DNA from: a virus
Taxonomy: Duplodnaviria > Heunggongvirae > Uroviricota > Caudoviricetes
Virus record (IMG/VR): IMGVR_UViG_3300045836_000008
Length of the DNA stretch: 64,000 nt
Direction: 5' to 3' (one strand)
Shown piece after piece: positions 3,792 through 55,613 of the stretch (positions are counted from its first letter, which is position 1; every line of letters starts with the position of its first letter). The notes beneath the pieces are model-generated. The model worked only from the letters and a program-made list of their open reading frames with translations, was not told the origin of the DNA and ran no database searches. The position numbers and the translations under genes were made by a program.

Positions 3792-3943
3792 TGGACCTGA
3801 TACAATACGCACTCGTTGCCGCGTGTGGGTTTGCGTTGTATCGCGAAGGCTTCAAACGCGGCGCACGTCAAGTCCTTGAAAAACTGGCAGAGATGGGTGT
3901 TGTGCAGTTGCAACAACCTGAACAAGACGAAGAAAACAGTTGA
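3767..3943 (+). CDS. small hypothetical membrane protein (58 aa, one predicted TM)
   Basis: ATG-initiated ORF overlapping the end of the previous gene with a hydrophobic LIQYALVAACGFALY segment. Below the 60-aa ORF-track cutoff. Confidence 0.3.
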   Translation: MYENIFSVMDLIQYALVAACGFALYREGFKRGARQVLEKLAEMGVVQLQQPEQDEENS

Positions 3944-3968
3944 CCAACCTTGGGAATGACTGTATAAT
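3940..3968 (+). promoter_or_regulatory. sigma70-type promoter (TTGACC-17-TATAAT) with CCTTGGGAA half-site in the spacer, driving the tRNA
   Basis: TTGACC aaccttgggaatgactg TATAAT read directly. Member of the window-wide promoter family. Confidence 0.6.
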
Positions 3969-4039
3969 GTGGTTTCACAGTTGATGATGTCGATCAACAC
4001 CGGTTCTTGTAGATTTGTCCGGGCAAAACAATCTCCGAT

Positions 4040-4112
4040 GGGTCGGTAGTTTATCTGGCTAAAACGGCGGACTCCAAACCCGCAGTGCAAGGTTCAAGTC
4101 CTTGTCGGCCCG
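4040..4112 (+). tRNA. tRNA, anticodon CCA (tRNA-Trp)
   Basis: Manual cloverleaf: acceptor GGGTCGG/TCGGCCC (two G-U pairs), U8, D-stem GTTT/AAAC with GG in the D-loop, anticodon loop CTCCAAA (U33, CCA, A37), T-arm CAAGG-TTCAAGT-CCTTG, discriminator G, encoded CCA at 4113-4115. One A-C mismatch at 31-39. Confidence 0.6.
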
Positions 4113-4167
4113 CCACATACTTGACCGCCAAGAGCGCGGAACTAAAACCTGAAGAGAAGTAGAGAAG

Positions 4168-4425
4168 ATGACTAAACAAGTTGCACCCCTGTCGCAAAAG
4201 GCACAAATCGAAAAGCTGCTTCGCCGTGGTCGCGTCCTGACCGCAGCGCAACTGCGTGAACTCGGTGTCACCAAGCCGTCCGCGCGCATCTGCAATCTGC
4301 GCGACGATGGTCTGCGCATCGTCAGCACGAAGAACAAGCAAGGCACCCCGGCATGGAAGCTGGACAAGGCGTTCTACAACGGCCTTGATGCTCGATCAAC
4401 ACCGGCATACGCATTCAGCGTCTAA
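4168..4425 (+). CDS. small DNA-binding protein with helix-turn-helix / winged-helix character
   Basis: 85 aa, basic, with a LTAAQLRELGVTKPSARICNLRDDGL HTH-like segment. Immediately downstream of the tRNA. Confidence 0.5.
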   Translation: MTKQVAPLSQKAQIEKLLRRGRVLTAAQLRELGVTKPSARICNLRDDGLRIVSTKNKQGTPAWKLDKAFYNGLDARSTPAYAFSV

Positions 4426-4447
4426 GCGCCACAACGACCAAACATCC

Positions 4448-4463
4448 GTGGGCTTCGGCCCAC
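4448..4463 (+). other. GC-rich stem-loop with UUCG tetraloop (GUGGGC-UUCG-GCCCAC), no U-tract
   Basis: Read directly. Lies between the HTH gene and the next ORF. Confidence 0.4.
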
Positions 4464-4488
4464 TTGAGAACTCTCTAAGACATCCTAC

Positions 4489-4977: not shown

Positions 4978-5099
4978 ATCACGCGTGACGTGTAGGTAGG
5001 GAAAGCAAACGGAGCATGGGAAGCGATGGTCTTGAAAACCTAGCGGATACCGCACCGGCCTACACAAACAAGCCCAACGTTGGACATCTGAAAAAGGTG

Positions 5100-5129
5100 T
5101 TGACAACGTTGGGCTTTTTCGTTTATGAT
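5100..5129 (+). promoter_or_regulatory. promoter of the conserved family (TTGACA-acgttgggctttttcgt-TTATGAT, leader TTCACTCAC...GGAG)
   Basis: Read directly. Conserved leader and GGAG precede the ATG at 5163. Confidence 0.5.
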
Positions 5130-5162
5130 TCACTCACTGGCACACACCACGGAGCGCAAGAC

Positions 5163-8892: not shown

Positions 8893-9399
8893 ATGCCCGA
8901 AGCCGAAGACGTAACAATCGCATTGCTGCAACGGGACTATGAACAGACGCAGCAGATCGTGTCCAAGATGGACACGGCAATCGAGAAGCTAACTGATCTT
9001 GGCGTTGACATGAAGCAGATGTTGGCGCTGCATGAACAACGAATTAACCGGCTTGAACAGATCGACAACGAAATTCATGGTCTTGTTGAAAAACGTCGAA
9101 CAGAACTACAGACGGACATCAAGGACGTGGATGCGAAATTGGCGAACACTATCAAGGAAATTACGGGCGACCTAGCCAACGTCGAGACACGCATCATGAA
9201 GGCCATCGCTGACGTGAAGGAAGACATCAAGTCCGACATCAAGACCGACAAGGAAGAGAAGGCCGAGTCCGACAAGGAACTGGTCAAGCGTGTCGAAAAG
9301 CTAGAGAAGTGGCGCTGGATGATGCTAGGCGGCGGTTTCGTCGTGGGCTTCATCATCGAGAAGGTTCTGCCCCTGCTTCTACCACACGTAGGTGGTTGA
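8893..9399 (+). CDS. hypothetical coiled-coil protein with C-terminal transmembrane segment
   Basis: Heptad-rich middle region and C-terminal WRWMMLGGGFVVGFIIEKVLPLLL segment. Confidence 0.5.
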   Translation: MPEAEDVTIALLQRDYEQTQQIVSKMDTAIEKLTDLGVDMKQMLALHEQRINRLEQIDNEIHGLVEKRRTELQTDIKDVDAKLANTIKEITGDLANVETRIMKAIADVKEDIKSDIKTDKEEKAESDKELVKRVEKLEKWRWMMLGGGFVVGFIIEKVLPLLLPHVGG

Positions 9400-9486
9400 C
9401 AAAACTCCCAGACTTGGGTATAAAGACGGCTTCGGTCGTCTTTTTGCATTTTGGGGCTTGCAAAATTCCCAAGCTTGTGAGATAAT
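9396..9486 (+). promoter_or_regulatory. two tandem family promoters flanking a UUCG-loop terminator
   Basis: TTGACA aaactcccagacttggg TATAAA, then terminator AGACGGC-UUCG-GUCGUCU + UUUUGCAUUUU (about 9424-9446), then TTGCAA aattcccaagcttgtga GATAAT. Precedes the primase. Confidence 0.6.
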
Positions 9487-9523
9487 ACGGTTTCGTTAGT
9501 CAAGCAACACCACGGAGTACCAC

Positions 9524-20107: not shown

Positions 20108-20137
20108 AAACGCTAACACTCGCGCAAAATTGATTAC

Positions 20138-20183
20138 AAACAGCCCGTTTCGTTGAAAAACGATTACGGGCTGTTTGCGTTTA
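20138..20183 (+). terminator. rho-independent terminator (AAACAGCCCGU...ACGGGCUGUUU + GCGUUU)
   Basis: 11-bp stem with a U-rich tail. Confidence 0.7.
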
Positions 20184-20186
20184 TGC

Positions 20187-20216
20187 TTGACAAATTCCCA
20201 ACCTTGGGTTTATGAT
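20187..20216 (+). promoter_or_regulatory. family promoter TTGACA-aaattcccaaccttgggtt-TATGAT
   Basis: Palindrome CCCAACCTTGGG in the spacer. Conserved leader TTCTCTCATCG...GGAG. Confidence 0.65.
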
Positions 20217-20253
20217 TCTCTCATCGTTGGACATTCAACACGGAGTGACAAAC

Positions 20254-20664
20254 ATGACGAACCTGTTCCGCATCTCGCTGACGAACGCAACCGGTCATCA
20301 CATCGAAGACAAGCCGTTCCCGAGTATCGAAGCTGCGCAAGCCTATGCCGACGAAGAAGGTAAGAAGTACGGCGCGACGCACTGCATGGCGGCGCTGATG
20401 GGCGAAGCCGTTCTAATGAAGGTCGAAGTCACCGACACGTTTGGCGGCGAAGCGAACTACTGTTGGGTCCATCGTCACGAACGCTGGATTCTGAAGGACA
20501 CATCCGACCGTGAGTGTGTCCGCATCGCCAAGGAACTCGAAGGCTGGACCGGCCATCCCTGCATGACCGAAAACTTCGGCGGCAAGTCTGGCTTCACGAT
20601 CCGCCCGCGTCACATGGCGCAGATCATGTTCATCAATTTCGACTACGATGTTGAAAATGCTTGA
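20254..20664 (+). CDS. hypothetical protein
   Basis: ATG after the leader GGAGTGACAAAC. Confidence 0.5.
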   Translation: MTNLFRISLTNATGHHIEDKPFPSIEAAQAYADEEGKKYGATHCMAALMGEAVLMKVEVTDTFGGEANYCWVHRHERWILKDTSDRECVRIAKELEGWTGHPCMTENFGGKSGFTIRPRHMAQIMFINFDYDVENA

Positions 20665-20689
20665 CAAGAATTCCCAAGCTTGGTAAGAT
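20661..20689 (+). promoter_or_regulatory. family promoter TTGACA-agaattcccaagcttgg-TAAGAT
   Basis: Palindrome CCAAGCTTGG. Leader TTCTTCCATCGACAACG...AGGAG. Confidence 0.65.
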
Positions 20690-20728
20690 TCTTCCATCGA
20701 CAACGCAGCACAAACAGGAGATTCAAAC

Positions 20729-21900: not shown

Positions 21901-21945
21901 CCAAACCTGACGGCGTTGTAGTGTATTCGCAACGCCGTCTGTCTG

Positions 21946-21974
21946 TTGCACAATTCCCAAAGTTGGTGTATAAT
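21946..21974 (+). promoter_or_regulatory. family promoter TTGCAC-aattcccaaagttggtg-TATAAT preceded by a 10-bp hairpin (GACGGCGUUG...CAACGCCGUC)
   Basis: Read directly. Hairpin at about 21909-21939. Drives rnh. Confidence 0.6.
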
Positions 21975-26844: not shown

Positions 26845-27026
26845 TGACGCCAGAAGAATTGGCGATCATCGATAAGCTGGCGGATGTCTTCAATGACTTC
26901 TGTAACTTGGAGAACAGGCATCCGTCAGACGTTGGCGAATTCGCACATCACATCCACATCCTTCAGCGTCACGTGATGGCTAGATTAGCGCGCCGCACTC
27001 ACCCAGAAGTATTTCCGCAACGATGA
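26844..27026 (+). CDS. small hypothetical protein (60 aa)
   Basis: ATG overlaps the upstream stop (TGATG). The stop overlaps the next start. Confidence 0.35.
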   Translation: MTPEELAIIDKLADVFNDFCNLENRHPSDVGEFAHHIHILQRHVMARLARRTHPEVFPQR

Positions 27027-27754: not shown

Positions 27755-28241
27755 GGTCAGCACGTTTGCCTTCGTATTTTACTGGTACGTCATGGTGGTT
27801 CAGAACGACTGCCATGCCACGGTTCACATAGCCGTGATACCCATGATCGACCACGGCACGTTCAAATGCGTTGCTGTGGTCTTCCCCGTTGTACACGTGC
27901 TTCGCAGCCGTGTCGCGGATTTCCTTGCTATGTTCAGGTGAAGCCTTTTCCGGGTTGTACATCTTGTGCAGCGTTGCGCTGTACGTGTGCTGTCCGAGTC
28001 CACTTTCGTGTACCTTCGATACTTTCTCGCCAGCATCGGCGTGATAAAAGTAGACACGTTTCTTGATGCGTTCGTCCTTGGTTTCACCCAGACGCTTCGC
28101 TTCCGCACCCTTGATCCCCGTCCCGTATTTGTTGCCGTCCAGACTTGACAGACCTTCCTTGTGGGAGTAGTGCAGTCCGTGGATAGTGTCGCCCTTGATC
28201 GGTTCTTCCCGCTCGGACAGAAATTGTTTGAATGTTTGCAT
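27735..28241 (-). CDS. hypothetical protein on the minus strand (168 aa from MQTFKQ...)
   Basis: The only minus-strand ORF with coding-like composition in the + strand block. His/Gly/Lys-rich. Start codon abuts the -35 of the divergent + strand promoter. The longer track ORF upstream is antisense to the + gene 28305-28547. Confidence 0.4.
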   Translation of the reverse strand: MQTFKQFLSEREEPIKGDTIHGLHYSHKEGLSSLDGNKYGTGIKGAEAKRLGETKDERIKKRVYFYHADAGEKVSKVHESGLGQHTYSATLHKMYNPEKASPEHSKEIRDTAAKHVYNGEDHSNAFERAVVDHGYHGYVNRGMAVVLNHHDVPVKYEGKRADLMKGTS

Positions 28242-28270
28242 TGACAGATTCCCAACGTTGTTGGTACTAT
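28241..28270 (+). promoter_or_regulatory. family promoter TTGACA-gattcccaacgttgttgg-TACTAT
   Basis: Read directly. Drives 28305-28547. Confidence 0.55.
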
Positions 28271-28304
28271 TTAGGCTCTGACAACGACTAGGGAGTGCCC
28301 TAAC

Positions 28305-28547
28305 ATGACGACGAATCAATTCCTTCTTTCCGATGTTGGCTCGGATGCAACCGGCCAGACCAAGACCTTCGTGAACCTGCACGATGACGTGATCGCACCG
28401 AAGGGCGCGGTGTCTCTGTCGATTTCGACGGTCTACAACAAGGCCCGGAACCCGGACGCCCACATCTCGAAGCTGGCCCTGACGGTCGGTTCCAAGGACA
28501 AGCTGCGTGAACTCGGTCAGTTCTTGATCGACTTTGCGAATGCTTGA
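28305..28547 (+). CDS. hypothetical protein
   Basis: 80-aa ORF after a family promoter. Confidence 0.5.
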   Translation: MTTNQFLLSDVGSDATGQTKTFVNLHDDVIAPKGAVSLSISTVYNKARNPDAHISKLALTVGSKDKLRELGQFLIDFANA

Positions 28548-28573
28548 CGACATTCCCAAGGTTGGTGTATCAT
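28544..28573 (+). promoter_or_regulatory. family promoter TTGACG-acattcccaaggttggtg-TATCAT
   Basis: Palindrome CCAAGGTTGG. Leader AGCGATTCATCAACCTTGG repeats the half-site. Confidence 0.6.
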
Positions 28574-28599
28574 AGCGATTCATCAACCTTGGAAAGACT

Positions 28600-30013: not shown

Positions 30014-30042
30014 TTGACAGAATTCCCAAGTCTGGGTATAGT
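30014..30042 (+). promoter_or_regulatory. family promoter TTGACA-gaattcccaagtctggg-TATAGT
   Basis: Leader TACATCCATCGCAGCGCACTTGGAG repeats the CTTGG half-site. Confidence 0.6.
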
Positions 30043-30073
30043 TACATCCATCGCAGCGCACTTGGAGCAAGAC

Positions 30074-30664: not shown

Positions 30665-30667
30665 CGC

Positions 30668-30718
30668 TTGACGAATTCCCAACGTTGCGATATGATTCAC
30701 ACATGCCGCAACGTTGGG
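30668..30718 (+). promoter_or_regulatory. family promoter TTGACG-aattcccaacgttgcga-TATGAT with a perfect 12-bp inverted repeat (CCCAACGTTGCG / CGCAACGTTGGG) bracketing the -10
   Basis: The two arms are exact reverse complements about 17 nt apart and flank TATGATTCACACATGC. Confidence 0.65.
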
Positions 30719-30741
30719 CGAACAAAACAGGAGAGTAGAAC

Positions 30742-31053
30742 ATGGGTATGACTGTCACGCCGAAGTACGCACTGGAAATCTTCACGAACAAACTGGTGAA
30801 CGGCAAGTGGGTGCAAGTCCCGGCGCTGGACTGCGCGACGTGGGACATCAAGCGCTATGGCCGTCCGACCGCAGAGAACTTGGAGAAGTACGTGATGGCG
30901 TATGCCAAGTCGCTCGAAGCCGGTGGCGTCAACGAAGGCATCTCGAAGGATTTGGGCTACATCCCGTATCCGACGAAGGCCGTGATCCGCTACAACCACA
31001 CCCACGGTGCAGAAGTCGCAGTGTGGAAGGCCGCAGCATTCCAAGTCTGGTAA
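30742..31053 (+). CDS. hypothetical protein
   Basis: 103-aa ORF. Confidence 0.5.
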   Translation: MGMTVTPKYALEIFTNKLVNGKWVQVPALDCATWDIKRYGRPTAENLEKYVMAYAKSLEAGGVNEGISKDLGYIPYPTKAVIRYNHTHGAEVAVWKAAAFQVW

Positions 31054-32792: not shown

Positions 32793-33046
32793 TGGGCTAC
32801 TCGTACCGGTTCGGAACCCAGATTCAGACCTTCTGGCCGGATGACGACGAGAAGACCCTGTACTTCTCGTCGGATTCATACCTGACGGTTTCTGACATGC
32901 TGGAACAGGCCCGCGACCATTGGGGCCAAGATGTCAAGCTGGAAGACATCAACATCGGAGCCGAACACATCCACACGGATTGTCTCGGTTACGACAGGTA
33001 CGATGCTGGTGACTACACGAACTTCATCGTCCTGACACGCAAGTAA
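32792..33046 (+). CDS. small hypothetical protein
   Basis: 84-aa ORF. Confidence 0.4.
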   Translation: MGYSYRFGTQIQTFWPDDDEKTLYFSSDSYLTVSDMLEQARDHWGQDVKLEDINIGAEHIHTDCLGYDRYDAGDYTNFIVLTRK

Positions 33047-33120
33047 TCCCAAGGTTGGGAATGCTTGACAAGACTCCCGGTTGCGCGTATGATTCAACTC
33101 ATACCAACGCACCGGGAGTT
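33047..33120 (+). promoter_or_regulatory. family promoter: palindrome TCCCAAGGTTGGGA upstream, TTGACA-agactcccggttgcgcg-TATGAT, and inverted repeat ACTCCCGGTTGCG / CGCACCGGGAGT bracketing the -10, followed by UUUUC
   Basis: Read directly. The second arm plus the U-run could terminate read-through transcripts. Confidence 0.6.
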
Positions 33121-33125
33121 TTCAC

Positions 33126-34610: not shown

Positions 34611-34753
34611 TTGACAAGCCCACGTATGTCTGTATAATTCGTTCTCAGGTTGTGACGCAAAACGAAACGCCGAAACGACCTGAACGATAACCAACCCCGT
34701 AGAAGAATCTACATCGTGTAGTTCTCTACTTTTCTTGATAAAGGAAATACATC
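34611..34753 (+). promoter_or_regulatory. promoter TTGACA-16-TATAAT followed by an unusually long (about 115 nt) structured 5' leader
   Basis: The leader contains hairpins (for example AGAAUCUACAUCGUGUAGUUCU) and a GGAAAUACAUC RBS region before the ATG at 34754. Confidence 0.5.
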
Positions 34754-35919: not shown

Positions 35920-35968
35920 TTGACAGGGATTCCCAGACTTGATATAATGTTTGCTTCAAGTCTGGGAA
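35920..35968 (+). promoter_or_regulatory. family promoter TTGACA-gggattcccagacttga-TATAAT with a perfect 12-bp inverted repeat (TTCCCAGACTTG / CAAGTCTGGGAA) bracketing the -10
   Basis: Read directly. Confidence 0.65.
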
Positions 35969-35977
35969 CGCAGCAAG

Positions 35978-40128: not shown

Positions 40129-40141
40129 TCCCAAGTCTGGG

Positions 40142-40190
40142 TTGACGTAACACGAACCGACAGGTATGATATGCCTGTCGGTTTCTTTTT
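40142..40190 (+). promoter_or_regulatory. promoter TTGACG-17-TATGAT whose -10 lies in the loop of a terminator hairpin (ACCGACAGG-UAUGAUAU-CCUGUCGGU + UUCUUUUU). An upstream CCCAAGTCTGGG half-site palindrome abuts the -35
   Basis: Read directly. Combined terminator for nadV and promoter for the next gene. Confidence 0.6.
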
Positions 40191-40202
40191 GGAGTGAATC
40201 AC

Positions 40203-40499: not shown

Positions 40500-40528
40500 T
40501 TGACACGAATTCCCAAGGTCGGTATAAT
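40500..40528 (+). promoter_or_regulatory. family promoter TTGACA-cgaattcccaaggtcgg-TATAAT
   Basis: Leader TCTCTTCATCGGTTGGACATCACTAGGAG. Confidence 0.65.
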
Positions 40529-40563
40529 TCTCTTCATCGGTTGGACATCACTAGGAGCGAAAC

Positions 40564-42113: not shown

Positions 42114-42162
42114 ATCGTACCTGAACGAATTCCCAAAGCTGAGAATAGTTCGCAAAAGTTGC

Positions 42163-42226
42163 TTGACATGTAAAAGACACATCTGTAGAATGTTTCATTA
42201 TTGAAACACCAGATGTGTCTTTTCAA
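42163..42226 (+). promoter_or_regulatory. promoter TTGACA-17-TAGAAT embedded in a 13-bp-stem hairpin (AAAAGACACAUCU ... AGAUGUGUCUUUU) whose 26-nt loop contains the -10 and an inner hairpin. A weaker family-like element (CTGAAC-gaattcccaaagctgag-AATAGT) lies just upstream at 42121
   Basis: Read directly. Confidence 0.55.
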
Positions 42227-42247
42227 CCCCTTCTCGGAGAAGTAACC

Positions 42248-45584: not shown

Positions 45585-45909
45585 CGAAATTACAGCGGAC
45601 CAGATTGTTCACGCTGGCAACATCAAGTTCTACTTCGAAGACCTTGGCGAAACGCTGACGGTTCGGGGCTATCTGGTCAACCTTCTGCGCAGTCTGTGGG
45701 CGGAAGGTGAAGGGTTCAACAGCAAGCGCCCATACGGCAACAGCGGATGGGAATTCGATCTGTACCGCGCGCTGGTTGACGGTGGCGCGATCAAGGGCAC
45801 GCTGGACGAAGATGGGTATCTCGAAGACTTCGACCGACAAGCGGGCATCGACATGATCTACGCGATCATTGATTCGCTCGAAGGCAACGACGACGATGAA
45901 GACGACTAA
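45577..45909 (+). CDS. hypothetical acidic protein (C-terminus DDDEDD)
   Basis: 110-aa ORF. Confidence 0.45.
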   Translation: MANEITADQIVHAGNIKFYFEDLGETLTVRGYLVNLLRSLWAEGEGFNSKRPYGNSGWEFDLYRALVDGGAIKGTLDEDGYLEDFDRQAGIDMIYAIIDSLEGNDDDEDD

Positions 45910-46162
45910 GCAGGAAGCCGCCAAGATCATCGATGACAAGCTGAAACAGGCTTGGCAATTGGTCGAAGATTGCGTGAAGCTGGCCGAACATTCCGGCTGT
46001 TGCTTCGAACTTCCGTGGGGTGGTGAAGGCACGGATCAGCGCGGCATGGGTGCGACGTATGTGCCCGAGAGTGCGAGCGAGCAAGACAAGAAGTGGATGT
46101 GTAATGACGGTTGGGGTGGTAACTACTACACCGGCTGGCAACCTTCGGCTGGCACATGCTGA
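45896..46162 (+). CDS. paralog family member 6 (C-terminus ...TGWQPSAGTC)
   Basis: ATG at 45896 in frame with track ORF 45869. VKLAEHSGCCFELPW core and WGGNYYTGW. Last residue Cys. Confidence 0.5.
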   Translation: MKTTKQEAAKIIDDKLKQAWQLVEDCVKLAEHSGCCFELPWGGEGTDQRGMGATYVPESASEQDKKWMCNDGWGGNYYTGWQPSAGTC

Positions 46163-46338
46163 AGCATCGCGAGTTCTTTGACGACGAGTTCTATCGCTTC
46201 ATGCTTCGAGAGTACGAAGCGATCCGCGTGCGTCGCAAGTCCCGAAAGGGCAAACCCGACGAGTATGAGAGAATCGAACTCACACTCGACAAGCTGTTCG
46301 AAAATTTTTACAAGCAGTTCATCGACTAAGGTCACAAC

Positions 46339-46746
46339 ATGTTCAAGAAGTTCGCAGTAGCAGTAGCAGGTATGGCGCTTGCAATGTCGGCCCACGCATT
46401 CAGCGCGGCAGCGGGTCACGCATCGGTATCCGTGGCACACGTCAGTGTCGTGTCGTCGGCCCATCCGGTCGCAGTGGCCGCACCGCACGTATCGGTCGTA
46501 GAACCGGTCGCGACGGCCCACGTAGCACCAACCCCCGCCGCGAAGCCAGCAACCCCGCCTGTGGCCGCTAAACCGGCTGCAACGGCAACGTCGCAGGTTG
46601 CGAAAGAAGCGACGGTCGCAAAGACGACGCTGGTTCCGAAGGCAACCGTTCCGCACACGCCGATCACGGTGGTTCGTGGCAAGACGGCAACCGCAGCAGC
46701 GTATGCTTCGGAAGCCAGTGCAGCATCGGCGGCACGCGCGAAGTAA
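46339..46746 (+). CDS. Sec-secreted His/Val/Ser/Ala/Pro-rich low-complexity protein
   Basis: Signal peptide MFKKFAVAVAGMALAMSAHA|FS. Repeats AHVSVVSSAHPVAVAAPHVSVVEPVATAHVAP. Ala/Pro/Lys-rich tail. Confidence 0.6.
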   Translation: MFKKFAVAVAGMALAMSAHAFSAAAGHASVSVAHVSVVSSAHPVAVAAPHVSVVEPVATAHVAPTPAAKPATPPVAAKPAATATSQVAKEATVAKTTLVPKATVPHTPITVVRGKTATAAAYASEASAASAARAK

Positions 46747-46756
46747 GTAGCAGTAG

Positions 46757-46792
46757 TTGACAAGGTTGGGAATGCGCGATAGTATTCCCAAC
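46757..46792 (+). promoter_or_regulatory. family promoter TTGACA-aggttgggaatgcgcga-TAGTAT with inverted repeat TTGGGAAT / ATTCCCAA bracketing the -10
   Basis: Read directly. Confidence 0.6.
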
Positions 46793-46807
46793 AAACAAGA
46801 GTCAAAG

Positions 46808-46939
46808 ATGAAGATTGAACGCTGTCCCCGGTGCGAGAAGAACCGATACAACGATTCGCCATACAACTACGTGTGGTGGTCCGTGATGGGTGTTGGGTAT
46901 ATGTGCTGGCACTGCTTCAAGTGCCTGAAAGCTAAATAG
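46808..46939 (+). CDS. small zinc-ribbon protein (43 aa)
   Basis: MKIERCPRCEKNRYNDSPYNYVWWSVMGVGYMCWHCFKCLKAK. ATG after CAAGAGTCAAAG. Confidence 0.4.
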   Translation: MKIERCPRCEKNRYNDSPYNYVWWSVMGVGYMCWHCFKCLKAK

Positions 46940-47876: not shown

Positions 47877-47905
47877 GGCCCGCCCTGTGCGGGCCTTTTT
47901 ATTTT
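47877..47905 (+). terminator. rho-independent terminator (GGCCCGC-CCUGU-GCGGGCC + UUUUUAUUUU)
   Basis: 7-bp GC stem plus a U-tract, immediately followed by a family promoter. Confidence 0.8.
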
Positions 47906-47909
47906 GTGC

Positions 47910-47938
47910 TTGACATCCATTCCCAAGCTTGGTAGTAT
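47910..47938 (+). promoter_or_regulatory. family promoter TTGACA-tccattcccaagcttgg-TAGTAT
   Basis: Palindrome CCAAGCTTGG. Leader TAGCACATACCAACATGGAG. Confidence 0.65.
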
Positions 47939-47966
47939 TAGCACATACCAACATGGAGTGCTGAAC

Positions 47967-48179: not shown

Positions 48180-48544
48180 TGGACGCGCTGATCGATGGTT
48201 TCTGGGCCGGTGTCGGGATTGCATTCTTCCTGTTCACACCGGTTTTTCTTGGCTGTTTGCGATGGGAGAAGAAGGCTATGAAAACTGTGTACATCGTGCC
48301 CGCGTGGTCGGATCAAGCAGGACAGTGCAGGATCGTCGCCACGGTCACGGCGCAGAAGTTGTCGAACGTGGCGCGCGACTACGACCACTACCCGGACAAG
48401 TGGCGTGAAGTCGGCATCATGAACAGCCAAGGCAAGCTGGTCTGCTATGACGGCAAGCCGGAAGAGCGCGCTGAAATCCTGTCGTGCGAACCGCTGGCCG
48501 CTGGTATGGTCTTCGAGTTCGAAGGAATTCATCAACCCGCTTGA
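48179..48544 (+). CDS. hypothetical membrane protein (N-terminal TM)
   Basis: GFWAGVGIAFFLFTPVFLGCL segment. ATG overlaps the upstream stop (TGATG). Confidence 0.5.
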   Translation: MDALIDGFWAGVGIAFFLFTPVFLGCLRWEKKAMKTVYIVPAWSDQAGQCRIVATVTAQKLSNVARDYDHYPDKWREVGIMNSQGKLVCYDGKPEERAEILSCEPLAAGMVFEFEGIHQPA

Positions 48545-48598
48545 CAACGAACTCCCAAGTGTGTAAGATTCTCACATCGACAACGCACTTGGGAGTTC
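48541..48598 (+). promoter_or_regulatory. family promoter TTGACA-acgaactcccaagtgtg-TAAGAT with a perfect 13-bp inverted repeat (GAACTCCCAAGTG ... CACTTGGGAGTTC) spanning the -10 and conserved leader TCTCACATCGACAACG
   Basis: The arms are exact reverse complements separated by about 24 nt. Confidence 0.65.
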
Positions 48599-48602
48599 AG
48601 AC

Positions 48603-48812
48603 ATGGCAAACTACATCGTCCACCTTCAAAACGAACTGAAGGACGCGAACGCCAAGCTGGCCGCGATGCAGGAAGAGATTCAGAACTTCCGCCGTCACCT
48701 TCAGTCCAGCAAGTTCCAGAACGTCGAAGGTCAAGAACGCAACGACTGGATCGCAGTCGCGGACGTGCAACGCTGGCTCGATAATATCGTCAACGCCGAA
48801 CAAAGCAGTTGA
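48603..48812 (+). CDS. small hypothetical coiled-coil protein
   Basis: 69-aa ORF. ATG after GGAGTTCAGAC. Confidence 0.45.
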   Translation: MANYIVHLQNELKDANAKLAAMQEEIQNFRRHLQSSKFQNVEGQERNDWIAVADVQRWLDNIVNAEQSS

Positions 48813-48837
48813 CAAGTATTCCCATTCTTGGTAATAT
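48809..48837 (+). promoter_or_regulatory. family promoter TTGACA-agtattcccattcttgg-TAATAT
   Basis: Leader CCTTCCATCGACAAACG...ACGGAG. Confidence 0.6.
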
Positions 48838-48870
48838 CCTTCCATCGACAAACGAAACGGAGTGAAGAAC

Positions 48871-49186: not shown

Positions 49187-49216
49187 CTTGACACGAATTC
49201 CCAGACATGGGATAAT
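49187..49216 (+). promoter_or_regulatory. family promoter TTGACA-cgaattcccagacatggg-ATAATA
   Basis: Leader GCTTCACATCAACGAACCGGGAG. Confidence 0.6.
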
Positions 49217-49246
49217 AGCTTCACATCAACGAACCGGGAGTCAAAC

Positions 49247-52619: not shown

Positions 52620-52883
52620 ATGCCAATCTATGACTTCGCGTGCAATGATTGTGGTCACACATTCGAACGCACACTCAAAATTGCGGACATGAAACAGCCG
52701 GAAGGCGAACCGTGCCCGTCCTGCCAGAAAGAAGGCACCGTCCAAAAGCAACTTGCGGGCGCACCTGCACTTGGCGATCCGACACGACTTGGCGACACCA
52801 AGAAACTCCCCGGCGATTTCAAAGACGTACTCCGCAAAATCCATGAACGCACACCACGTAGCAACCTGAACTTGAAGTTCTAA
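52620..52883 (+). CDS. FmdB-family zinc-ribbon protein
   Basis: MPIYDFACNDCGHTFE...CPSC. Classic FmdB N-terminus. Confidence 0.65.
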   Translation: MPIYDFACNDCGHTFERTLKIADMKQPEGEPCPSCQKEGTVQKQLAGAPALGDPTRLGDTKKLPGDFKDVLRKIHERTPRSNLNLKF

Positions 52884-52931
52884 GTCGGTTCAGGCCGATC
52901 ATCCCATCTCCCTAAGCAGGAGCAAAGTAGC

Positions 52932-53708
52932 ATGGCAAAGAAGAACAGGGCACAACGCCCAAACGCCGTGAATGCAGCACAAGCACAACAAAGTGTTCAA
53001 CGTCAGTACACCGACCATCCGACGAACCGCTTGAAGCTGCGCATAGATGATCTGAAGGTATTCGAACCCCTGACGGCCAATCAGGGTGTGTTCTTCGAAG
53101 AATACCAAGACCAACGAAATATGGCCTTCATCCTGCACGGTGTTGCGGGTTCAGGCAAGTCGTTCATTGCGCTGTACAAGGCGCTCGAAACCGTGATGGA
53201 CCCTAGCAACCCGATGGACGGTGTTGTGATTGTCCGAAGCGCTGTGTCGGGTCGTGACATCGGTCACTTGCCGGGTACTGAAGAAGAGAAGTTGGCCGTC
53301 TACGAACAGCCCTACATCGGCATCTGTGCCGACCTGTTTGGCCGTCGCGACGCCTACCAACGACTGAAGGAACAAGGCGCAATCGACTTCATCTCGTCGT
53401 CGTTCATTCGTGGCACGACACTCGATAACAAGATCGTTATCGTGGACGAAATGCAGAACTATTCGTGGGAAGAACTGTACACCATCGCGACCCGCGTGGG
53501 CCATCGGACCAAGATCATCTTTGCCGGTGACTTGCGCCAGACAGACCTTCGCAAGCGCGGTGATCCTTCCGGTCTGGTGAAGTTCCTTGATGTGATGGCG
53601 ACGTTGGAAGATGTCGCACTGATCGAATTTGGTGTCCCTGACATCGTTCGTTCGGCTTTCGTAAAGGCTGTCATCGTCGCAACAATGGCTTACGACGACG
53701 CGCACTAA
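52932..53708 (+). CDS. phoH: PhoH-family ATPase
   Basis: Walker A GVAGSGKS, Walker B IVIVDEMQN, family motif IIFAGDLRQTDL. Confidence 0.85.
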   Translation: MAKKNRAQRPNAVNAAQAQQSVQRQYTDHPTNRLKLRIDDLKVFEPLTANQGVFFEEYQDQRNMAFILHGVAGSGKSFIALYKALETVMDPSNPMDGVVIVRSAVSGRDIGHLPGTEEEKLAVYEQPYIGICADLFGRRDAYQRLKEQGAIDFISSSFIRGTTLDNKIVIVDEMQNYSWEELYTIATRVGHRTKIIFAGDLRQTDLRKRGDPSGLVKFLDVMATLEDVALIEFGVPDIVRSAFVKAVIVATMAYDDAH

Positions 53709-53764
53709 GCGCTGAAGGGTTCCTGTGGACTAAATATTCATTGTTTAGTCTTTAGGAACCCTAA

Positions 53765-54277
53765 ATGTCTTATACCCTGTCACAAGCGGGCGCACAAATG
53801 ATTGGTCAGTTTGAAGGTCTTCGGCTGACAGCGTATTACGATCAAGTAGGCGTCCTAACAATCGGCTACGGCACGACGAATGCGGTACTTCCGCCGTCGA
53901 TGCAATTCGGCCCCGGCACTACCATCACGCAAGCGCAAGCGGTGCAATACCTGCAATACGCAGTGAACACGAAGTTCGCACCCGCCGTGAACAATCTGGT
54001 CAAAGTGCCGATCACTCAAAACGAATTCGATTCGCTAGTCTCTTTCGCCTACAACTTGGGTGCAGGGTCGCTGGCGAGTTCTACATTGCTGCGTCTTTTG
54101 AATGCGGGCCAGTATGGCGCTGCGCAGAAGCAGTTCCTTGTCTGGAACAAAGCCGGTGGTGTAGCAGTGCGCGGACTCACGAACCGCCGTCTTGGTGAAG
54201 CTGCAAACTTTGGCCCGCTTTCGCGTTCGGCCCTAATCGCACAATGCTTGAACGGCGTTGATCCCGCAAACCCATAA
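53765..54277 (+). CDS. e: phage lysozyme (GH24, T4 e-type endolysin)
   Basis: N-terminal catalytic motif EGLRLTAYYDQVGVLTIGYG and a downstream conserved Thr/Asn region. Confidence 0.85.
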   Translation: MSYTLSQAGAQMIGQFEGLRLTAYYDQVGVLTIGYGTTNAVLPPSMQFGPGTTITQAQAVQYLQYAVNTKFAPAVNNLVKVPITQNEFDSLVSFAYNLGAGSLASSTLLRLLNAGQYGAAQKQFLVWNKAGGVAVRGLTNRRLGEAANFGPLSRSALIAQCLNGVDPANP

Positions 54278-54289
54278 TCACAACAATCC

Positions 54290-55573
54290 ATGAGTACGAA
54301 AAACTTTTGGCAAATGCGTTCGCAGCTTGATGCCCTGAAGCTGGTCACTGAAGGTCTGACTTCGGTGGACAAGGGCGATCATCTGGAAATCACGCCAGAC
54401 CACATGAAGAAGCCGATGTACAAGGGCACGGCCATCGAGCATCGCGGCAACCCGGAACACTACGGCCCGGACGGTCATGCAGCGCTCGATAAGCACGTCT
54501 CCGAAGTCGTGAAGAACCCCGAGAAGAACACGGCGTTCAAGTCGGCTGACAGCTACACCAAGCAGCACCTTGGCACTGGCTACGAGTTCCATGACGAGAA
54601 GCCGAAGTCATCGCTGCGCAAGCAGTACGTGATCGGCAAGACGTATGACCTAGCAACCCAGAATCATCCCGACTACAAGAAGGCGGTGTTCGACGGCTAC
54701 GCAAAGCATCGTCCCGACATCGTGAAGCAGACCAAGGCAACGGACTACGATTCGCTGGTGCAAGGATCGTACAAGCACGTCGCCAAGGAAACGAACAAAC
54801 AGTTCGAACACCTACCGGTCAAGACGCAGTTCCATGATGGTCACATGGGCTATCACAACAGCGGCGAGATGATGCGCGACATCCACGGTCACAACAACCT
54901 GACTGTGTATCGTGGTGGCGACAAACACGAATTCCTGCATCATACCGACAAGACTGGCCTGAACGAGAACGAGAAGTTCCGTGCAGTTCATGACTACTAC
55001 GGTCACGCGATCCACGGCAACCAGTTCGGCCCGAAGGGCGAAGAAGTTGCATGGCACTCGCACAAGAAGATGTTCTCGCACGGCGCATCGGTCGCAATGA
55101 CGGCAGAAACGCGCGGTCAGAACAGCTACGTGAACTACACGCATGCGAACCTATCAACGCAGAAAGAGATGGAAGGCCATCGTGCATCGAAGCGTGCTGC
55201 ATTGAACGCGGGCGATCACGCTGGTGCGGCGCAAGCTGACGCACATCTGCGTGAAGCTGGTGGCAAGTGGAACTACGCGAAGCAAGCATCGGTAGCACTG
55301 CCACACGAAATGCTTCACCCGCACTTCGACGGTCACGCACCGGACAGCATCAAGCATCTACTGCATGATCCGGCTGCGAAGGCATCTGGCGGCGTCTATG
55401 ACGTTCACAAGGACCATCTGGGACTTGCGGACCTTGCCCGTCACCACAACACGTCATCGCACACCCACATGGGCGGCGGCGTGCTTGACCGTGACAACGC
55501 ACACGCGGACCTGAAGCACATCGCGGCAGTCCACGGCTACACCAAACTTTCACACAACCCGTTCAAGGGCTGA
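54290..55573 (+). CDS. His-rich hypothetical protein (427 aa)
   Basis: Numerous HxxH/HH clusters (HDGHMGYHNSGEMMRDIHGHNN, HAIHGNQFG, HEMLHPHFDGH). Compositionally similar to 46959-47852. Confidence 0.55.
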   Translation: MSTKNFWQMRSQLDALKLVTEGLTSVDKGDHLEITPDHMKKPMYKGTAIEHRGNPEHYGPDGHAALDKHVSEVVKNPEKNTAFKSADSYTKQHLGTGYEFHDEKPKSSLRKQYVIGKTYDLATQNHPDYKKAVFDGYAKHRPDIVKQTKATDYDSLVQGSYKHVAKETNKQFEHLPVKTQFHDGHMGYHNSGEMMRDIHGHNNLTVYRGGDKHEFLHHTDKTGLNENEKFRAVHDYYGHAIHGNQFGPKGEEVAWHSHKKMFSHGASVAMTAETRGQNSYVNYTHANLSTQKEMEGHRASKRAALNAGDHAGAAQADAHLREAGGKWNYAKQASVALPHEMLHPHFDGHAPDSIKHLLHDPAAKASGGVYDVHKDHLGLADLARHHNTSSHTHMGGGVLDRDNAHADLKHIAAVHGYTKLSHNPFKG

Positions 55574-55575
55574 TC

Positions 55576-55613
55576 TTGACAACGCTGGCCGTCTGTGATA
55601 CTTTCAGACGGCC
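55576..55613 (+). promoter_or_regulatory. TTGACA followed by a 9-bp hairpin (GGCCGUCUG-UGAUACUUU-CAGACGGCC) whose loop carries a weak -10-like TGATACT
   Basis: Same architecture as 40142 and 42163, with a weaker -10. Confidence 0.4.

What the first reader, a model, noticed from the sequence alone, without database searches (positions are those of the whole stretch)
3940..55613. About 25-member family of near-identical early promoters with a palindromic operator-like spacer and conserved leader
At least 24 + strand sites share TTGACA-(g)AATTCCCAAG(C/G)TTGG(tg)-TATAAT-like architecture. Approximate positions: 3940, 5100, 9396, 9458, 20187, 20661, 21946, 28241, 28544, 30014, 30668, 33065, 35920, 40142, 40500, 42121/42163, 46757, 47910, 48541, 48809, 49187, 55576. 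The spacer carries the palindrome TTCCCAAG-CTTGGGAA, and the initial transcribed region is conserved (TATGATTC-tcaCATCGACAACG...GGAG). Each copy precedes one or a few small ORFs. The conservation runs from upstream of the -35 to the RBS, far beyond what sigma70 recognition alone requires. This points to a dedicated phage regulator (repressor or activator binding the palindrome) or a modified host RNA polymerase, analogous to but distinct from T4 early/MotA-dependent promoters.
Basis: seen in the sequence. Interest (0 to 1): 0.85.

Follow-up and report, generated by a model that had tools for sequence, protein, structure and literature searches.

The report
Early promoter stem-loop cassettes (PeSL-type)
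The repeated element is a real family of about 22 strong host-type early promoters in an uncultured T4-like phage, each with an attached stem-loop, and it matches the "promoter-early stem-loop" (PeSL) cassettes already described in other T4-like phages rather than a new operator system.

Summary
The promoter family is real. A strict TTGACA-N16-18-TATAAT scan finds 19 sites on the + strand, 2 on the - strand, and about 2 expected per strand. Four related IMG/VR genomes bring the total to 66 + strand and 2 - strand. TCCC sits in the spacer of 17 of 24 window sites, against 4.4% expected.

The description is overstated in three ways:
- The copies are not near-identical. Mean pairwise identity is 0.37 over 60 nt.
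- The leader is not conserved across the family (0.27 identity).
- The spacer palindrome is present in about 5 of 19 window sites and is not enriched in distant relatives.

The general feature is an inverted repeat attached to each promoter. It lies upstream, over the -35, inside the spacer, or, most often, bracketing the -10 so that the spacer pairs with the leader. Cognate spacer-leader complementarity beats non-cognate pairings in all five genomes. One orthologous set shows 3 compensatory changes in 9 pairs with none broken.

This is the anatomy published for PeSLs in RB49/phi1, T4/PST and KVP40/nt-1. The genes served are small, poorly conserved ORFans. In about a third of sites the 3' arm contains the Shine-Dalgarno sequence (SD), so read-through RNA would be untranslatable. 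Verdict: a new member of a known kind, of modest interest.

The parts
3940..3968 (+). Promoter TTGACC-17-TATAAT. The spacer carries the everted motif CCAACCTTGGGAAT. It heads tRNA-Trp (4040-4115) and then the wHTH ORF 4168-4425.
5070..5162 (+). Terminator-like hairpin AAGCCCAACGTTGG...CAACGTTGGGCTT plus a U-run. It encloses the -35 of promoter 5100-5129. The gene starts at 5163.
   Evidence: (z -4.77)
9396..9443 (+). Degraded copy (TTGACA-17-TATAAA, spacer ACTCCCAGACTTGGG) that runs into the intrinsic terminator 9422-9443.
9458..9523 (+). Promoter TTGCAA-17-GATAAT with spacer ATTCCCAAGCTTG, directly after a terminator. It heads the primase gene (TTG start at 9524).
20137..20253 (+). Upstream stem-loop with a U-rich tail, then promoter 20187-20216 with spacer ATTCCCAACCTTGGG. 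The gene starts at 20254.
   Evidence: (z -5.64)
20661..20728 (+). Promoter with spacer palindrome TTCCCAAGCTTGG and leader CATCGACAAC. No stable long-range hairpin.
   Evidence: (z 0.40)
21909..21974 (+). Upstream stem-loop GACGGCGTTG...CAACGCCGTC, then promoter TTGCAC-17-TATAAT with spacer ATTCCCAAAGTTGG.
   Evidence: z -2.92
28241..28304 (+). Promoter in which spacer ATTCCC/CGTTGT pairs with leader ACAACG/GGGAGT, which includes the SD.
   Evidence: -18.0; SD Punp 0.25 own vs 0.06 read-through
28544..28599 (+). Promoter bracketed by the inverted repeat TTCCCAAGGTTGGTG / CATCAACCTTGGAAA, with the -10 in the loop.
   Evidence: z -3.08
30014..30073 (+). Promoter with spacer TTCCCAAGTCTGGG. Only a weak local hairpin.
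   Evidence: z 0.36
30668..30741 (+). Promoter bracketed by CCCAACGTTGCG / CGCAACGTTGGG. Orthologs show compensatory changes.
   Evidence: (z -4.35)
33045..33125 (+). Upstream palindrome TCCCAAGGTTGGGA, then promoter 33065-33093 bracketed by ACTCCCGGTTGCG / CGCACCGGGAGT. The 3' arm is the SD.
   Evidence: SD Punp 0.73 own vs 0.00 read-through; z -5.54
34611..34638 (+). Perfect consensus promoter (12/12) with an unrelated spacer and a 115-nt structured leader.
35920..35977 (+). Promoter (12/12) bracketed by TTCCCAGACTTGA / TCAAGTCTGGGAA. The 3' arm overlaps the SD-like GGGAA.
   Evidence: 0.77 own vs 0.01 read-through; z -4.34
40130..40202 (+). Upstream CCCAAGTCTGGG, then promoter 40142-40170 with its -10 in the loop of a 14-bp hairpin followed by a U-run (intrinsic-terminator form).
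   Evidence: (z -3.27)
40500..40563 (+). Promoter (12/12) with spacer ATTCCCAAGGTCGG and no stable hairpin.
   Evidence: z 1.28
42121..42149 (+). Degraded half-copy (CTGAAC-17-AATAGT) that keeps ATTCCCAAAG.
42163..42247 (+). Promoter bracketed by AAAAGACACATCTG / CAGATGTGTCTTTT, an unrelated sequence with the same geometry.
   Evidence: z -6.28
46757..46807 (+). Promoter with everted arms GTTGGGAAT / ATTCCCAAC around the -10. Orthologs co-vary (GATGGGGAT / ATCCCCATC).
   Evidence: (z -3.31)
47877..47966 (+). Intrinsic terminator 47877-47895, then promoter 47910-47938 with spacer ATTCCCAAGCTTGG.
48541..48602 (+). Promoter bracketed by GAACTCCCAAGTGTGT / ACGCACTTGGGAGTTC. The 3' arm contains the SD.
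   Evidence: 0.71 own vs 0.00 read-through; z -5.56
48809..48870 (+). Promoter with spacer ATTCCCATTCTTGG and leader CATCGACAAA. No stable hairpin.
   Evidence: z 0.21
49188..49246 (+). Promoter TTGACA-17-GATAAT with spacer TCCCAGACATGGGA. TTCCC can pair with the SD GGGAG.
   Evidence: (0.33 own vs 0.06 read-through)
55576..55659 (+). Weaker promoter (TTGACA-17-TACTTT) bracketed by GGCCGTCTG / CAGACGGCC.
   Evidence: z -4.67
55865..55926 (+). Intrinsic terminator followed by TTTCCCAAGCTTGTAAAAT, which has no good -35. A half-copy before the gene at 55927.

Best explanation
The window is the early or 'hyperplastic' part of an uncultured T4-like myophage of about 168 kb. The repeated element is its set of PeSL-type cassettes.

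**Anatomy of a cassette**
- A strong host-sigma70 promoter (TTGACA-N17-TAnnAT) with a mildly AT-rich upstream flank.
- An SD plus start codon of a small gene 20-40 nt downstream.
- An inverted repeat placed upstream of the promoter, across the -35, inside the spacer, or around the -10.

**Shown by sequence analysis**
- The promoter family, its strand bias, and its conservation in four related genomes.
- The cognate-specific complementarity between spacer and leader.
- Compensatory substitutions in orthologs.
- The association with small, poorly conserved ORFans.

**Inferred mechanism**
- Host RNA polymerase starts about 7 nt after the -10. A cassette's own mRNA therefore lacks the 5' arm and is open for translation.
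- RNA that reads through from an upstream cassette contains both arms and folds.
- The fold then acts as an insulator. Where a U-run follows, it is an intrinsic terminator (5100, 40142, and the separate terminators before 9458, 20187, 47910 and 55890).
- Elsewhere it is an attenuator or 3'-end structure.
- In about one third of sites it buries the SD, so each small early gene is expressed only from its own promoter.

**The conserved ATTCCC spacer word**
- It is the 5' arm consensus and is complementary to GGGAA(T), or to the SD GGGAG with one G-U pair.
- PeSL families of other T4-like phages also have family-specific stem consensus sequences.

**Further inference**
- The repeated 35-70 nt of similarity also gives substrates for recombination that shuffles the flanked ORFans, as proposed for PeSLs.
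For: **T4-like context**
- gp41-type helicase, 54% identical to cyanomyovirus gp41.
- Primase, ribonucleotide reductase (RNR), NAMPT, ligase, and a T5 A1-like protein.
- Baseplate/tail lysin-like ORF on the - strand.
- Relatives are 168-kb contigs.

**Promoters**
- 19 on + against 2 on -, with 2.0 expected per strand.
- 66 against 2 when relatives are included.

**Stem-loops**
- RNA folds have z of -3 or lower at 10 of 20 window cassettes.
- Separate upstream stem-loops or terminators are present at 4-5 more.

**Cognate against non-cognate spacer-leader duplex energy**
- Window: -15.1 against -10.4 kcal/mol, with 0 of 20,000 permutations reaching the observed value.
- Replicated in four related genomes, p 0.02 to 0.0006.

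**Covariation**
- Orthologs of 30668: 9 pairs, 100% paired, 3 with changes on both sides, 0 with a one-sided change.
- Orthologs of 46757 keep everted arms through GGGAAT/ATTCCC to GGGGAT/ATCCCC.
- The stem at 33065 is kept in four genomes.

**SD accessibility**
- Mean unpaired probability of the SD is 0.54 in own transcripts and 0.33 in read-through RNA (p 2e-6).
- 32% of sites fall below 0.1 in read-through RNA, against 0% with random upstream sequence.

**Genes served**
- They are 43-180 aa. Eight of 10 tested have no Pfam family.
- Eight of 18 are absent from distant relatives. The rest are about 40-55% identical, against 65-90% for core genes.

**Literature**
- They have family-specific stem consensus sequences and are preferentially next to ORFans (PMC2839356; PMC4122927).
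Against: - Only a minority of the bracketing hairpins are followed by a U-run, so classical termination cannot be the general role.
- About 7 cassettes have no stable structure (3940, 20661, 30014, 34611, 40500, 48809, 49188), with z near 0 where they were folded.
- No RNA-strand signature was found. G-T against A-C mismatches are 9 against 16. The - strand folds as well as the + strand. A DNA-level role is therefore not excluded.
- SD masking is no stronger with the cognate upstream sequence than with another cassette's upstream sequence (0.33 against 0.29). It is absent at the best co-varying hairpin, 30668.
- The sequence conservation of ATTCCCA, in 49 of 66 spacers across genomes with 70-76% protein identity, is more than pairing alone requires.
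- The one strain-level recombination patch seen is not bounded by cassettes.
- No transcription data exist.
Confidence: 0.72

Rival explanations
1. Operator model. The spacer palindrome TTCCCAAG-CTTGGGAA is the binding site of a dimeric phage repressor or activator, for example the winged-HTH protein encoded at 4168-4425. That protein switches the whole early family on or off.
For: - TCCCAANNTTGG is enriched tenfold.
- Some promoters carry a second copy just upstream (33045, 40130).
- ATTCCCA is conserved as a sequence, not only as a pairing partner, in 49 of 66 spacers.
- An early-expressed wHTH gene lies behind promoter 3940.
- No TATAAATA-type late promoter occurs in the window, so how the phage switches its early promoters off is unknown.
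Against: - Dyad symmetry is modest in the window (26% of spacers, against 12% in chimeras) and absent in distant relatives (5% against 6%).
- The register varies by 2-6 nt, and the motif can be everted or moved.
- Arms with unrelated sequence at 40142, 42163 and 55576 keep the same geometry.
- Downstream partners co-vary, which a protein site does not predict.
- The right half TTGG coincides with the extended -10 TGn and the G at -13.
Confidence: 0.12
2. Promoter-of-origin translational switch as the primary function. The spacer word (A/C)TTCCC is an anti-SD. It is transcribed only in read-through RNA and masks the GGGAG of the next gene. The gene is therefore translated only from its own early promoter. 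This is the logic of T4 genes e, soc, 49 and I-TevI, applied here to sigma70 promoters.
For: - TTCCC is complementary to GGGAG/GGGAA.
- The SD lies in the 3' arm at 28241, 33065, 35920, 48541 and 49188, and at many sites in relatives. Unpaired probability there drops from 0.25-0.77 to 0.06 or less.
- Any cassette's upstream region lowers SD accessibility more than random coding sequence does (0.29 against 0.39, p 3e-7).
- The SD-containing stem at 33065 is kept in four genomes.
- The T4 precedent is documented (PMC3014915).
Against: - Only about one third of sites are strongly masked.
- The average effect over random upstream sequence is small.
- Hairpins at 30668, 42163, 46757 and 55576 do not include the SD.
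- The everted copies place GGGAA upstream.
Confidence: 0.25
3. DNA-level role. The inverted repeats act in DNA, as hairpins or cruciforms in single-stranded or supercoiled DNA. They serve as recombination or replication-restart hotspots, and the promoter association is secondary.
For: - Stems are almost all Watson-Crick, with no excess of G-T over A-C.
- Both strands fold equally well.
- PeSL crossovers were mapped inside or beside the stem-loop in RB49/phi1 (PMC2839356).
- Indels lie next to cassette 46757.
Against: - Loops of 13-26 nt are unfavourable for cruciform extrusion (established knowledge).
- The elements have a strict orientation and position relative to the -10 and the SD.
- The strain-level divergent patch is not bounded by cassettes.
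Confidence: 0.1
4. No separate function for the spacer word. The similarity beyond the hexamers reflects common descent and gene conversion among duplicated promoter cassettes.
For: - Outside the -35, the -10, TCCC and a few flanking bases, the copies are barely more alike than random sequence (0.27 identity after the -10).
- A subfamily shares 69 nt at 62-75% identity, as expected from recent duplication.
Against: - The word persists in genomes whose proteins are only 70-76% identical, and whose cassette-linked genes are about 45% identical.
- Compensatory changes show selection on pairing.
Confidence: 0.12

Closest known systems
PeSLs (promoter-early stem-loops) of T4-like phages: RB49/phi1 (Arbiol et al. 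2010, PMC2839356), and T4/PST and KVP40/nt-1 (Comeau et al. 2014, PMC4122927)
   Same: - Repeated sigma70-type early promoters in a T4-like genome, with an AT-richer upstream flank and the SD and start codon of a small ORFan at the 3' end.
- A stem-loop in one of several positions: upstream, over the -35, between the boxes, or over the -10.
- A family-specific stem consensus. It is AAAGGG-loop-CCCTTT in nt-1 and G(n)-loop-C(n) in RB49. Here it is ATTCCC...GGGAAT.
- Clustering in variable regions, and degraded 'half' copies.
   Different: - The host lineage is an uncultured phage of 53% GC, whose nearest isolate proteins are only 42-54% identical.
- The stem polarity is reversed, with the C-run in the 5' arm.
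- Loops are large (13-26 nt) and hold the -10 and the start site.
- About a third of the 3' arms are the SD itself, a point the 2010 paper does not raise ('translation' has 0 occurrences).
- Terminator activity and mini-circle formation, shown experimentally for RB49/phi1, are untested here.
Promoter-inside-hairpin translational control of T4 genes e, soc, 49 and I-TevI (reviewed in PMC3014915)
   Same: - The promoter lies in or just after the segment that encodes the 5' strand of an RNA helix sequestering the SD.
- Long read-through transcripts are therefore untranslatable, and promoter-proximal transcripts are open.
   Different: - In T4 the internal promoters are late (gp55-dependent) and the silent transcripts are early. 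Here both are sigma70-type.
- The arrangement is repeated across a family, and only about a third of copies include the SD.
T4 early and MotA-dependent middle promoters
   Same: Phage promoters recognised by host RNA polymerase, with conservation beyond the two hexamers.
   Different: - There is no MotA box at -30 replacing the -35.
- The -35 is canonical TTGACA at 17 nt.
- The extra conservation lies in the spacer and has a variable register.
Intrinsic (Rho-independent) terminators placed back-to-back with promoters
   Same: Sites 5100 and 40142, and the elements before 9458, 20187, 47910 and 55890, are GC-rich hairpins followed by U-runs that overlap or abut the next promoter.
   Different: Most bracketing hairpins have no U-run.

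Membership tests
PeSL (promoter-early stem-loop cassette) | Resides in a T4-like myovirus genome | tested here: met
   gp41-type helicase 54% identical to cyanomyovirus gp41, plus primase, RNR, ligase and NAMPT. Relatives are 168-kb viral contigs.
PeSL (promoter-early stem-loop cassette) | Repeated sigma70-like promoter (-35, about 17 nt, -10) co-oriented with the genes | tested here: met
   19 on + against 2 on - in the window, with 2.0 +/- 1.3 expected per strand. 66 against 2 with relatives.
PeSL (promoter-early stem-loop cassette) | Stem-loop-forming sequence attached to the promoter, at variable positions (upstream, over the -35, between the boxes, over the -10) | tested here: met
   z of -3 or lower at 10 of 20 cassettes. 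Upstream stem-loops at 9458, 20187, 21946, 47910 and 55890. Cognate-specific complementarity, 0 of 20,000 permutations. Compensatory changes. About 7 cassettes have only weak spacer hairpins.
PeSL (promoter-early stem-loop cassette) | [quoted passage not shown] | tested here: met
   AT is 0.55-0.58 in the 25 nt before the -35, against 0.46-0.48 for the genome. A modest enrichment.
PeSL (promoter-early stem-loop cassette) | SD and start codon of the downstream gene at the 3' end | tested here: met
   60 of 66 sites have a GGAG-type SD and a start codon 16-70 nt after the predicted start site. The exception at 3940 heads a tRNA.
PeSL (promoter-early stem-loop cassette) | Preferential association with small, variable ORFans in hyperplastic regions | tested here: met
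   Cassettes cluster at 20-22, 28-36, 40-42 and 46.7-49.2 kb, with none in the RNR or ligase blocks. The genes served are 43-180 aa, 8 of 10 have no Pfam family, and 8 of 18 are absent from distant relatives.
PeSL (promoter-early stem-loop cassette) | The stem-loop terminates or attenuates upstream transcription | not testable with these tools
   From sequence alone, a U-run follows the hairpin at 5100 and 40142 and at the separate upstream terminators, but not after most bracketing hairpins.
PeSL (promoter-early stem-loop cassette) | Recombination between cassettes shuffles the flanked genes (indels, mini-circles) | tested here: inconclusive
   A 1-kb, three-gene indel lies directly upstream of cassette 46757 relative to L094. 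The divergent patch relative to strain L101 (29.4-31.05 kb) is not bounded by cassettes.
T4 gene e / soc / 49 / I-TevI type translational hairpin | The SD and/or start codon is sequestered in a helix in the longer transcript | tested here: inconclusive
   Predicted for 32% of sites (unpaired probability below 0.1) and not for the rest. The cognate effect is no stronger than the chimeric one.
T4 gene e / soc / 49 / I-TevI type translational hairpin | The internal promoter's transcript lacks the 5' strand of the helix | tested here: met
   All 5' arms end before the -10. The 3' arms start 3-20 nt after it, or overlap its last bases in the everted copies such as 46757. The start-site position is assumed from sigma70 rules.
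T4 gene e / soc / 49 / I-TevI type translational hairpin | The internal promoter is a late (gp55, TATAAATA) promoter | tested here: not met
   The promoters are TTGACA/TATAAT type. TATAAATA has 0 matches in the window.
Dyad-symmetric operator of a dimeric repressor | Both half-sites conserved across the family and in relatives | tested here: not met
   Arms of 5 or more: window 26% against 12% in chimeras. Distant relatives 5% against 6% in shuffled spacers.
Dyad-symmetric operator of a dimeric repressor | Fixed position relative to the promoter elements | tested here: not met
   TCCC starts 2-6 nt after the -35 and 11-16 nt before the -10. It is also found upstream or everted.
Dyad-symmetric operator of a dimeric repressor | A cognate DNA-binding protein binds it | not testable with these tools
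   The candidate is the wHTH (HTH_39, E 1e-8) at 4168-4425. No close relative was found by peptide scan.
MotA-dependent middle promoter | A MotA box (TGCTT) centred at -30 replaces the -35, and lies 11-13 nt from the -10 | tested here: not met
   Canonical TTGACA lies 16-18 nt from the -10. The GC before it belongs to a -35 context, not to a box at -30.

The most novel reading that the evidence does not exclude
The conserved spacer word (A/C)TTCCC is a family-wide anti-Shine-Dalgarno built into the promoter itself. It lies upstream of the start site, so it is present only in RNA that reads through from an upstream cassette. Every small early gene would then be translated only from its own sigma70 promoter. 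Early-gene expression would stop as soon as those promoters are shut off, whatever read-through persists. This would be a general 'promoter-of-origin' translational insulator, extending the T4 gene e / I-TevI principle from single late genes to a whole class of early genes. It would also give PeSL stem-loops a function other than termination.
Probability: 0.2. Interest if true: 0.6.

Novelty: new member of a known kind. Interest (0 to 1): 0.3.

Why it matters
[quoted passage not shown] They were previously described in three coliphage, Yersinia and Vibrio phage pairs.
- I did not find comparative evidence of this kind in the two PeSL papers I read. Here the pairing itself appears to be under selection: compensatory substitutions, and cognate-specific complementarity replicated in five genomes.
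- It shows that most of these stem-loops are not classical terminators. A third of them bury the ribosome-binding site.
- That gives a concrete, testable alternative for what PeSL stem-loops do.
- Practically, the cassette model marks the early transcription units and the variable ORFan modules in this phage group.

Tried and rejected
- **Pattern scan for more copies.** A whole-collection scan of IMG/VR for TTGACANNNATTCCCAAG gave 92 loci with one hit each. Nearly all look like chance. A few turned out to belong to the relatives found later by protein.
- **Search for a described relative.** Megablast of 12 kb against INPHARED phages found no match.
- **G-T against A-C mismatch asymmetry, and + against - strand folding energy.** These were meant to decide between RNA-level and DNA-level structure. 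Neither showed a signal (9 against 16; + minus - = +1.4 kcal/mol).
- **Cognate against chimeric SD accessibility.** No cognate-specific effect appeared (0.33 against 0.29). SD masking was therefore demoted from general mechanism to a subset feature.
- **Covariation at the 33065 stem.** The stem is invariant, so it is uninformative.
- **MAFFT alignment of the 46757 orthologs.** It was not in structural register, so the arms were compared from local alignments instead.
- **Closest isolate.** Stenotrophomonas phage DLP6 has no strict sigma70 promoters on the + strand in 41 kb. The family is not shared.
- **Relatives of the wHTH protein.** The peptide scan found none.
- **T4 late promoter TATAAATA.** There are 0 matches.
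- **The loose 9-of-12 promoter scan.** It is not enriched over shuffles. Only the strict threshold and the strand bias carry the signal.
- **Considered and dropped without a dedicated test.** A sigma54 or ECF promoter reading, and restriction-site palindromes. The central dinucleotide varies.

Full report
**What the window is.** The 64-kb window has a GC content of about 0.53 throughout.

- It encodes a gp41-type replicative helicase at 1141-2553, 54% identical to cyanomyovirus gp41.
- It also encodes a primase, ribonucleotide reductase (RNR), NAMPT, an ATP-dependent DNA ligase and a T5 A1-like protein.
- A tail-lysin/tape-measure-like ORF lies on the - strand at the right end.
- There is no near-identical record among 50,697 deposited phages.
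- The nearest isolates by ligase are Stenotrophomonas phage DLP6 and a Pseudomonas phage, at 42%.
- IMG/VR holds near-identical fragments (3300044693, 98-100% protein identity), an intermediate relative (3300010396, 81-86%) and three 168-kb contigs at 70-76%.

It is therefore the early or replication half of an uncultured T4-like myophage.

**Checking the observation.** Every listed position carries a promoter-like site.

- With a strict rule (TTGACA with 1 mismatch or fewer, 16-18 nt, TAnnnT, 10 of 12 or better), the window has 19 sites on the + strand and 2 on the - strand. Shuffles give 2.0 +/- 1.3 per strand.
- Seven loci from relatives add 47 sites on + and none on -.
- The tool's looser 9-of-12 scan is not enriched. 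The signal lies in the near-consensus matches and the strand bias.
- TCCCAANNTTGG is tenfold enriched (31 against 3.1).
- TCCC lies in the spacer of 17 of 24 window sites and 49 of 66 sites overall, against 4.4% of random 17-mers.
- The promoters are the largest repeat families in the window.

Three parts of the description do not hold.

- The copies are not near-identical. Pairwise identity is 0.37 on average over 60 nt, and 67-85% over the 33-nt core.
- The leader is not conserved across the family. Identity is 0.27 over the 30 nt after the -10. The exact CATCGACAAC occurs at two promoters, and a CATCG/CATCA subfamily covers 8 of 24.
- The palindrome is a minority feature, as set out next.

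**Palindrome or pairing?** A dyad with arms of 5 or more is present in 5 of 19 window spacers. That is 26%, against 6% in shuffled spacers and 12% in chimeras built from the left half of one site and the right half of another.

In the distant relatives, which keep ATTCCCA, the frequency is 5% against 6%. The right half TTGG also coincides with the extended -10 TGn and the conserved G at -13. The word starts 2-6 nt after the -35, and it can lie upstream of the -35 (33045, 40130) or be everted (3940, 46757).

What is general is that the spacer is complementary to a segment of its own leader.

- Duplex energies for cognate spacer-leader pairs average -15.1 kcal/mol, against -10.4 for non-cognate pairs in the window. 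None of 20,000 permutations reached the observed value.
- The same holds in each of four related genomes, with p between 0.02 and 0.0006.
- Folding 75-nt segments as RNA gives z of -3 or lower at 5100, 28544, 30668, 33065, 35920, 40142, 42163, 46757 and 48541, and at 55576.
- Promoters 9458, 20187, 21946 and 47910, and the half-copy at 55890, have a separate stem-loop or terminator immediately upstream instead.
- Seven cassettes have only weak spacer hairpins or none: 3940, 20661, 30014, 34611, 40500, 48809 and 49188.
- Sites 40142, 42163 and 55576 have arms of unrelated sequence in the same geometry.

**Covariation.**

- The orthologs of cassette 30668 read CCCAACGTTGCG/CGCAACGTTGGG in the window, CCCACGTTTGG/CCAAACGTGGG in L103 and L104, and CCCGCGTTTGG/CCAAACGCGGG in L105.
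- On the alignment, 9 pairs are 100% paired. Three carry changes on both sides and none carries a one-sided change. Every slid control falls to 27-51% paired.
- The orthologs of 46757 keep an everted hairpin through GTTGGGAAT/ATTCCCAAC, GATGGGGAT/ATCCCCATC and related forms.
- The 13-bp stem at 33065, whose 3' arm is the SD, is invariant in four genomes and so uninformative.

Co-variation of arms separated by 13-26 nt argues for base pairing, not for a protein site.

**RNA or DNA?** I could not decide. Mismatches inside stems are 9 G-T against 16 A-C, and the - strand folds slightly better than the + strand. There is therefore no wobble signature of a + strand RNA.

The large loops make cruciform extrusion unlikely (established knowledge). 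The strict orientation relative to the -10 and the SD fits a transcript-level role. Both of these points are inference.

**What the hairpin would do.**

- The start site is expected about 7 nt after the -10. A cassette's own mRNA therefore lacks the 5' arm, and only read-through RNA from upstream has both arms.
- A U-run follows the hairpin at 5100 and 40142 and at the separate upstream terminators, but not after most bracketing hairpins.
- The SD lies in the 3' arm at 28241, 33065, 35920, 48541 and 49188, and at many sites in relatives.
- Across 60 sites, the mean unpaired probability of the SD is 0.54 in own transcripts and 0.33 in read-through RNA (p 2e-6). It falls below 0.1 at 32% of sites.
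- Swapping in another cassette's upstream region gives 0.29, and random coding sequence gives 0.39.

The shared TTCCC word therefore acts as a generic anti-SD of modest average effect. It is decisive at about a third of sites and irrelevant at others, such as 30668.

**Context.**

- Cassettes cluster at 20-22, 28-36, 40-42 and 46.7-49.2 kb. They are absent from the RNR and ligase blocks.
- The genes they head are 43-180 aa. Eight of 10 tested have no Pfam family.
- Eight of 18 are absent from the distant relatives. The rest are about 40-55% identical, against 65-90% for core genes.
- A 1-kb, three-gene indel relative to L094 lies directly upstream of cassette 46757.
- A divergent patch relative to the near-identical strain L101 spans cassettes 30014 and 30668 but is not bounded by them.

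**Comparison with what is known.** Arbiol et al. 2010 (PMC2839356) and Comeau et al. 2014 (PMC4122927) described promoter-early stem-loops (PeSLs) in T4-like phages.

- They are repeated sigma70-like early promoters with an AT-rich upstream flank, and with the SD and start codon of a downstream ORFan at the 3' end.
- Each phage group has its own stem consensus: G(n)-loop-C(n) in RB49, and AAAGGG-loop-CCCTTT in nt-1.
- They are enriched in hyperplastic regions, they have degraded half-copies, and they are proposed to drive modular shuffling.

Every sequence-level defining feature was tested here and met. Terminator activity and mini-circle formation cannot be tested with these tools.

The SD-masking geometry is that of T4 genes e, soc, 49 and I-TevI (PMC3014915). 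There the internal promoters are late ones. The 2010 PeSL paper does not discuss translation ('translation' has 0 occurrences).

The closest isolate, DLP6, has no such promoters in 41 kb, so this particular family is lineage-specific.

**Verdict.** The operator interpretation is not supported, though a factor that reads ATTCCCA is not excluded. The element is a new member of the known PeSL kind. The useful additions are comparative evidence for selection on pairing and a testable translational-insulator reading. Interest is modest.

Noticed in passing
window 4040-4115 (+): A tRNA-Trp (CCA) gene lies about 70 nt downstream of promoter 3940. That cassette therefore heads a tRNA, followed by ORF 4168-4425, rather than a protein gene.
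   Followed up: yes
window 4168-4425 (+): The 85-aa ORF is a winged helix-turn-helix protein (Pfam HTH_39, E 1e-8). It is a candidate early DNA-binding protein. No close relative was found by a peptide scan of IMG/VR.
   Followed up: partly
window 7022-6994 (- strand) and downstream to about 6880: A perfect 12-of-12 sigma70 consensus promoter lies on the minus strand, inside a 237-nt gap between + strand genes. Its spacer carries TTTGGGA. The predicted transcript has no SD and folds with z -2.7, including two CG-rich hairpins with GAAG loops. It may be a small or antisense RNA. There is no Rfam match.
   Followed up: partly
window 34611-34753 (+): A perfect consensus promoter with an unrelated spacer has a 115-nt structured leader (z -3.45). 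The leader contains a hairpin plus U-run just before the SD of gene 34754. The orthologous promoters in L103, L104 and L105 also have leaders of about 70 nt. It may be a leader attenuator.
   Followed up: partly
window 29400-31050 vs L101: In an otherwise near-identical strain (0-3 differences per 150 nt), this 1.6-kb patch has 10-19 differences per 150 nt. This looks like a recombination patch. It spans cassettes 30014 and 30668 but does not end at cassettes.
   Followed up: partly
window 45882-46933 vs L094; window 26845-27022 vs L100/L101: About 1 kb with three small genes is present in the window and absent from the 3300010396 relative, directly upstream of cassette 46757. A 179-nt segment after the A1-like gene is missing or replaced in the near-identical strains.
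   Followed up: partly
window 33033-33048 and 40118-40133: The 16-mer CGCAAGTAATCCCAAG is shared at two loci. It includes the last codons and the TAA stop of two unrelated upstream genes (an 84-aa ORF and NAMPT). This looks like a cassette boundary copied together with the gene end.
   Followed up: no
window 9396-9443 and 42121-42149: Degraded promoter copies keep the ACTCCCAGACTTGGG or ATTCCCAAAG spacer word but have lost a hexamer. The one at 9396 runs straight into a terminator. They resemble the 'half PeSLs' described for PST and nt-1.
   Followed up: partly
L106 (Stenotrophomonas phage DLP6, 105992-147332): The closest cultured relative by ligase (42%) has no strict TTGACA/TATAAT promoter on the gene strand in 41 kb, although its gene order is similar and it has a large tRNA array. 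Its early promoters must look different.
   Followed up: partly
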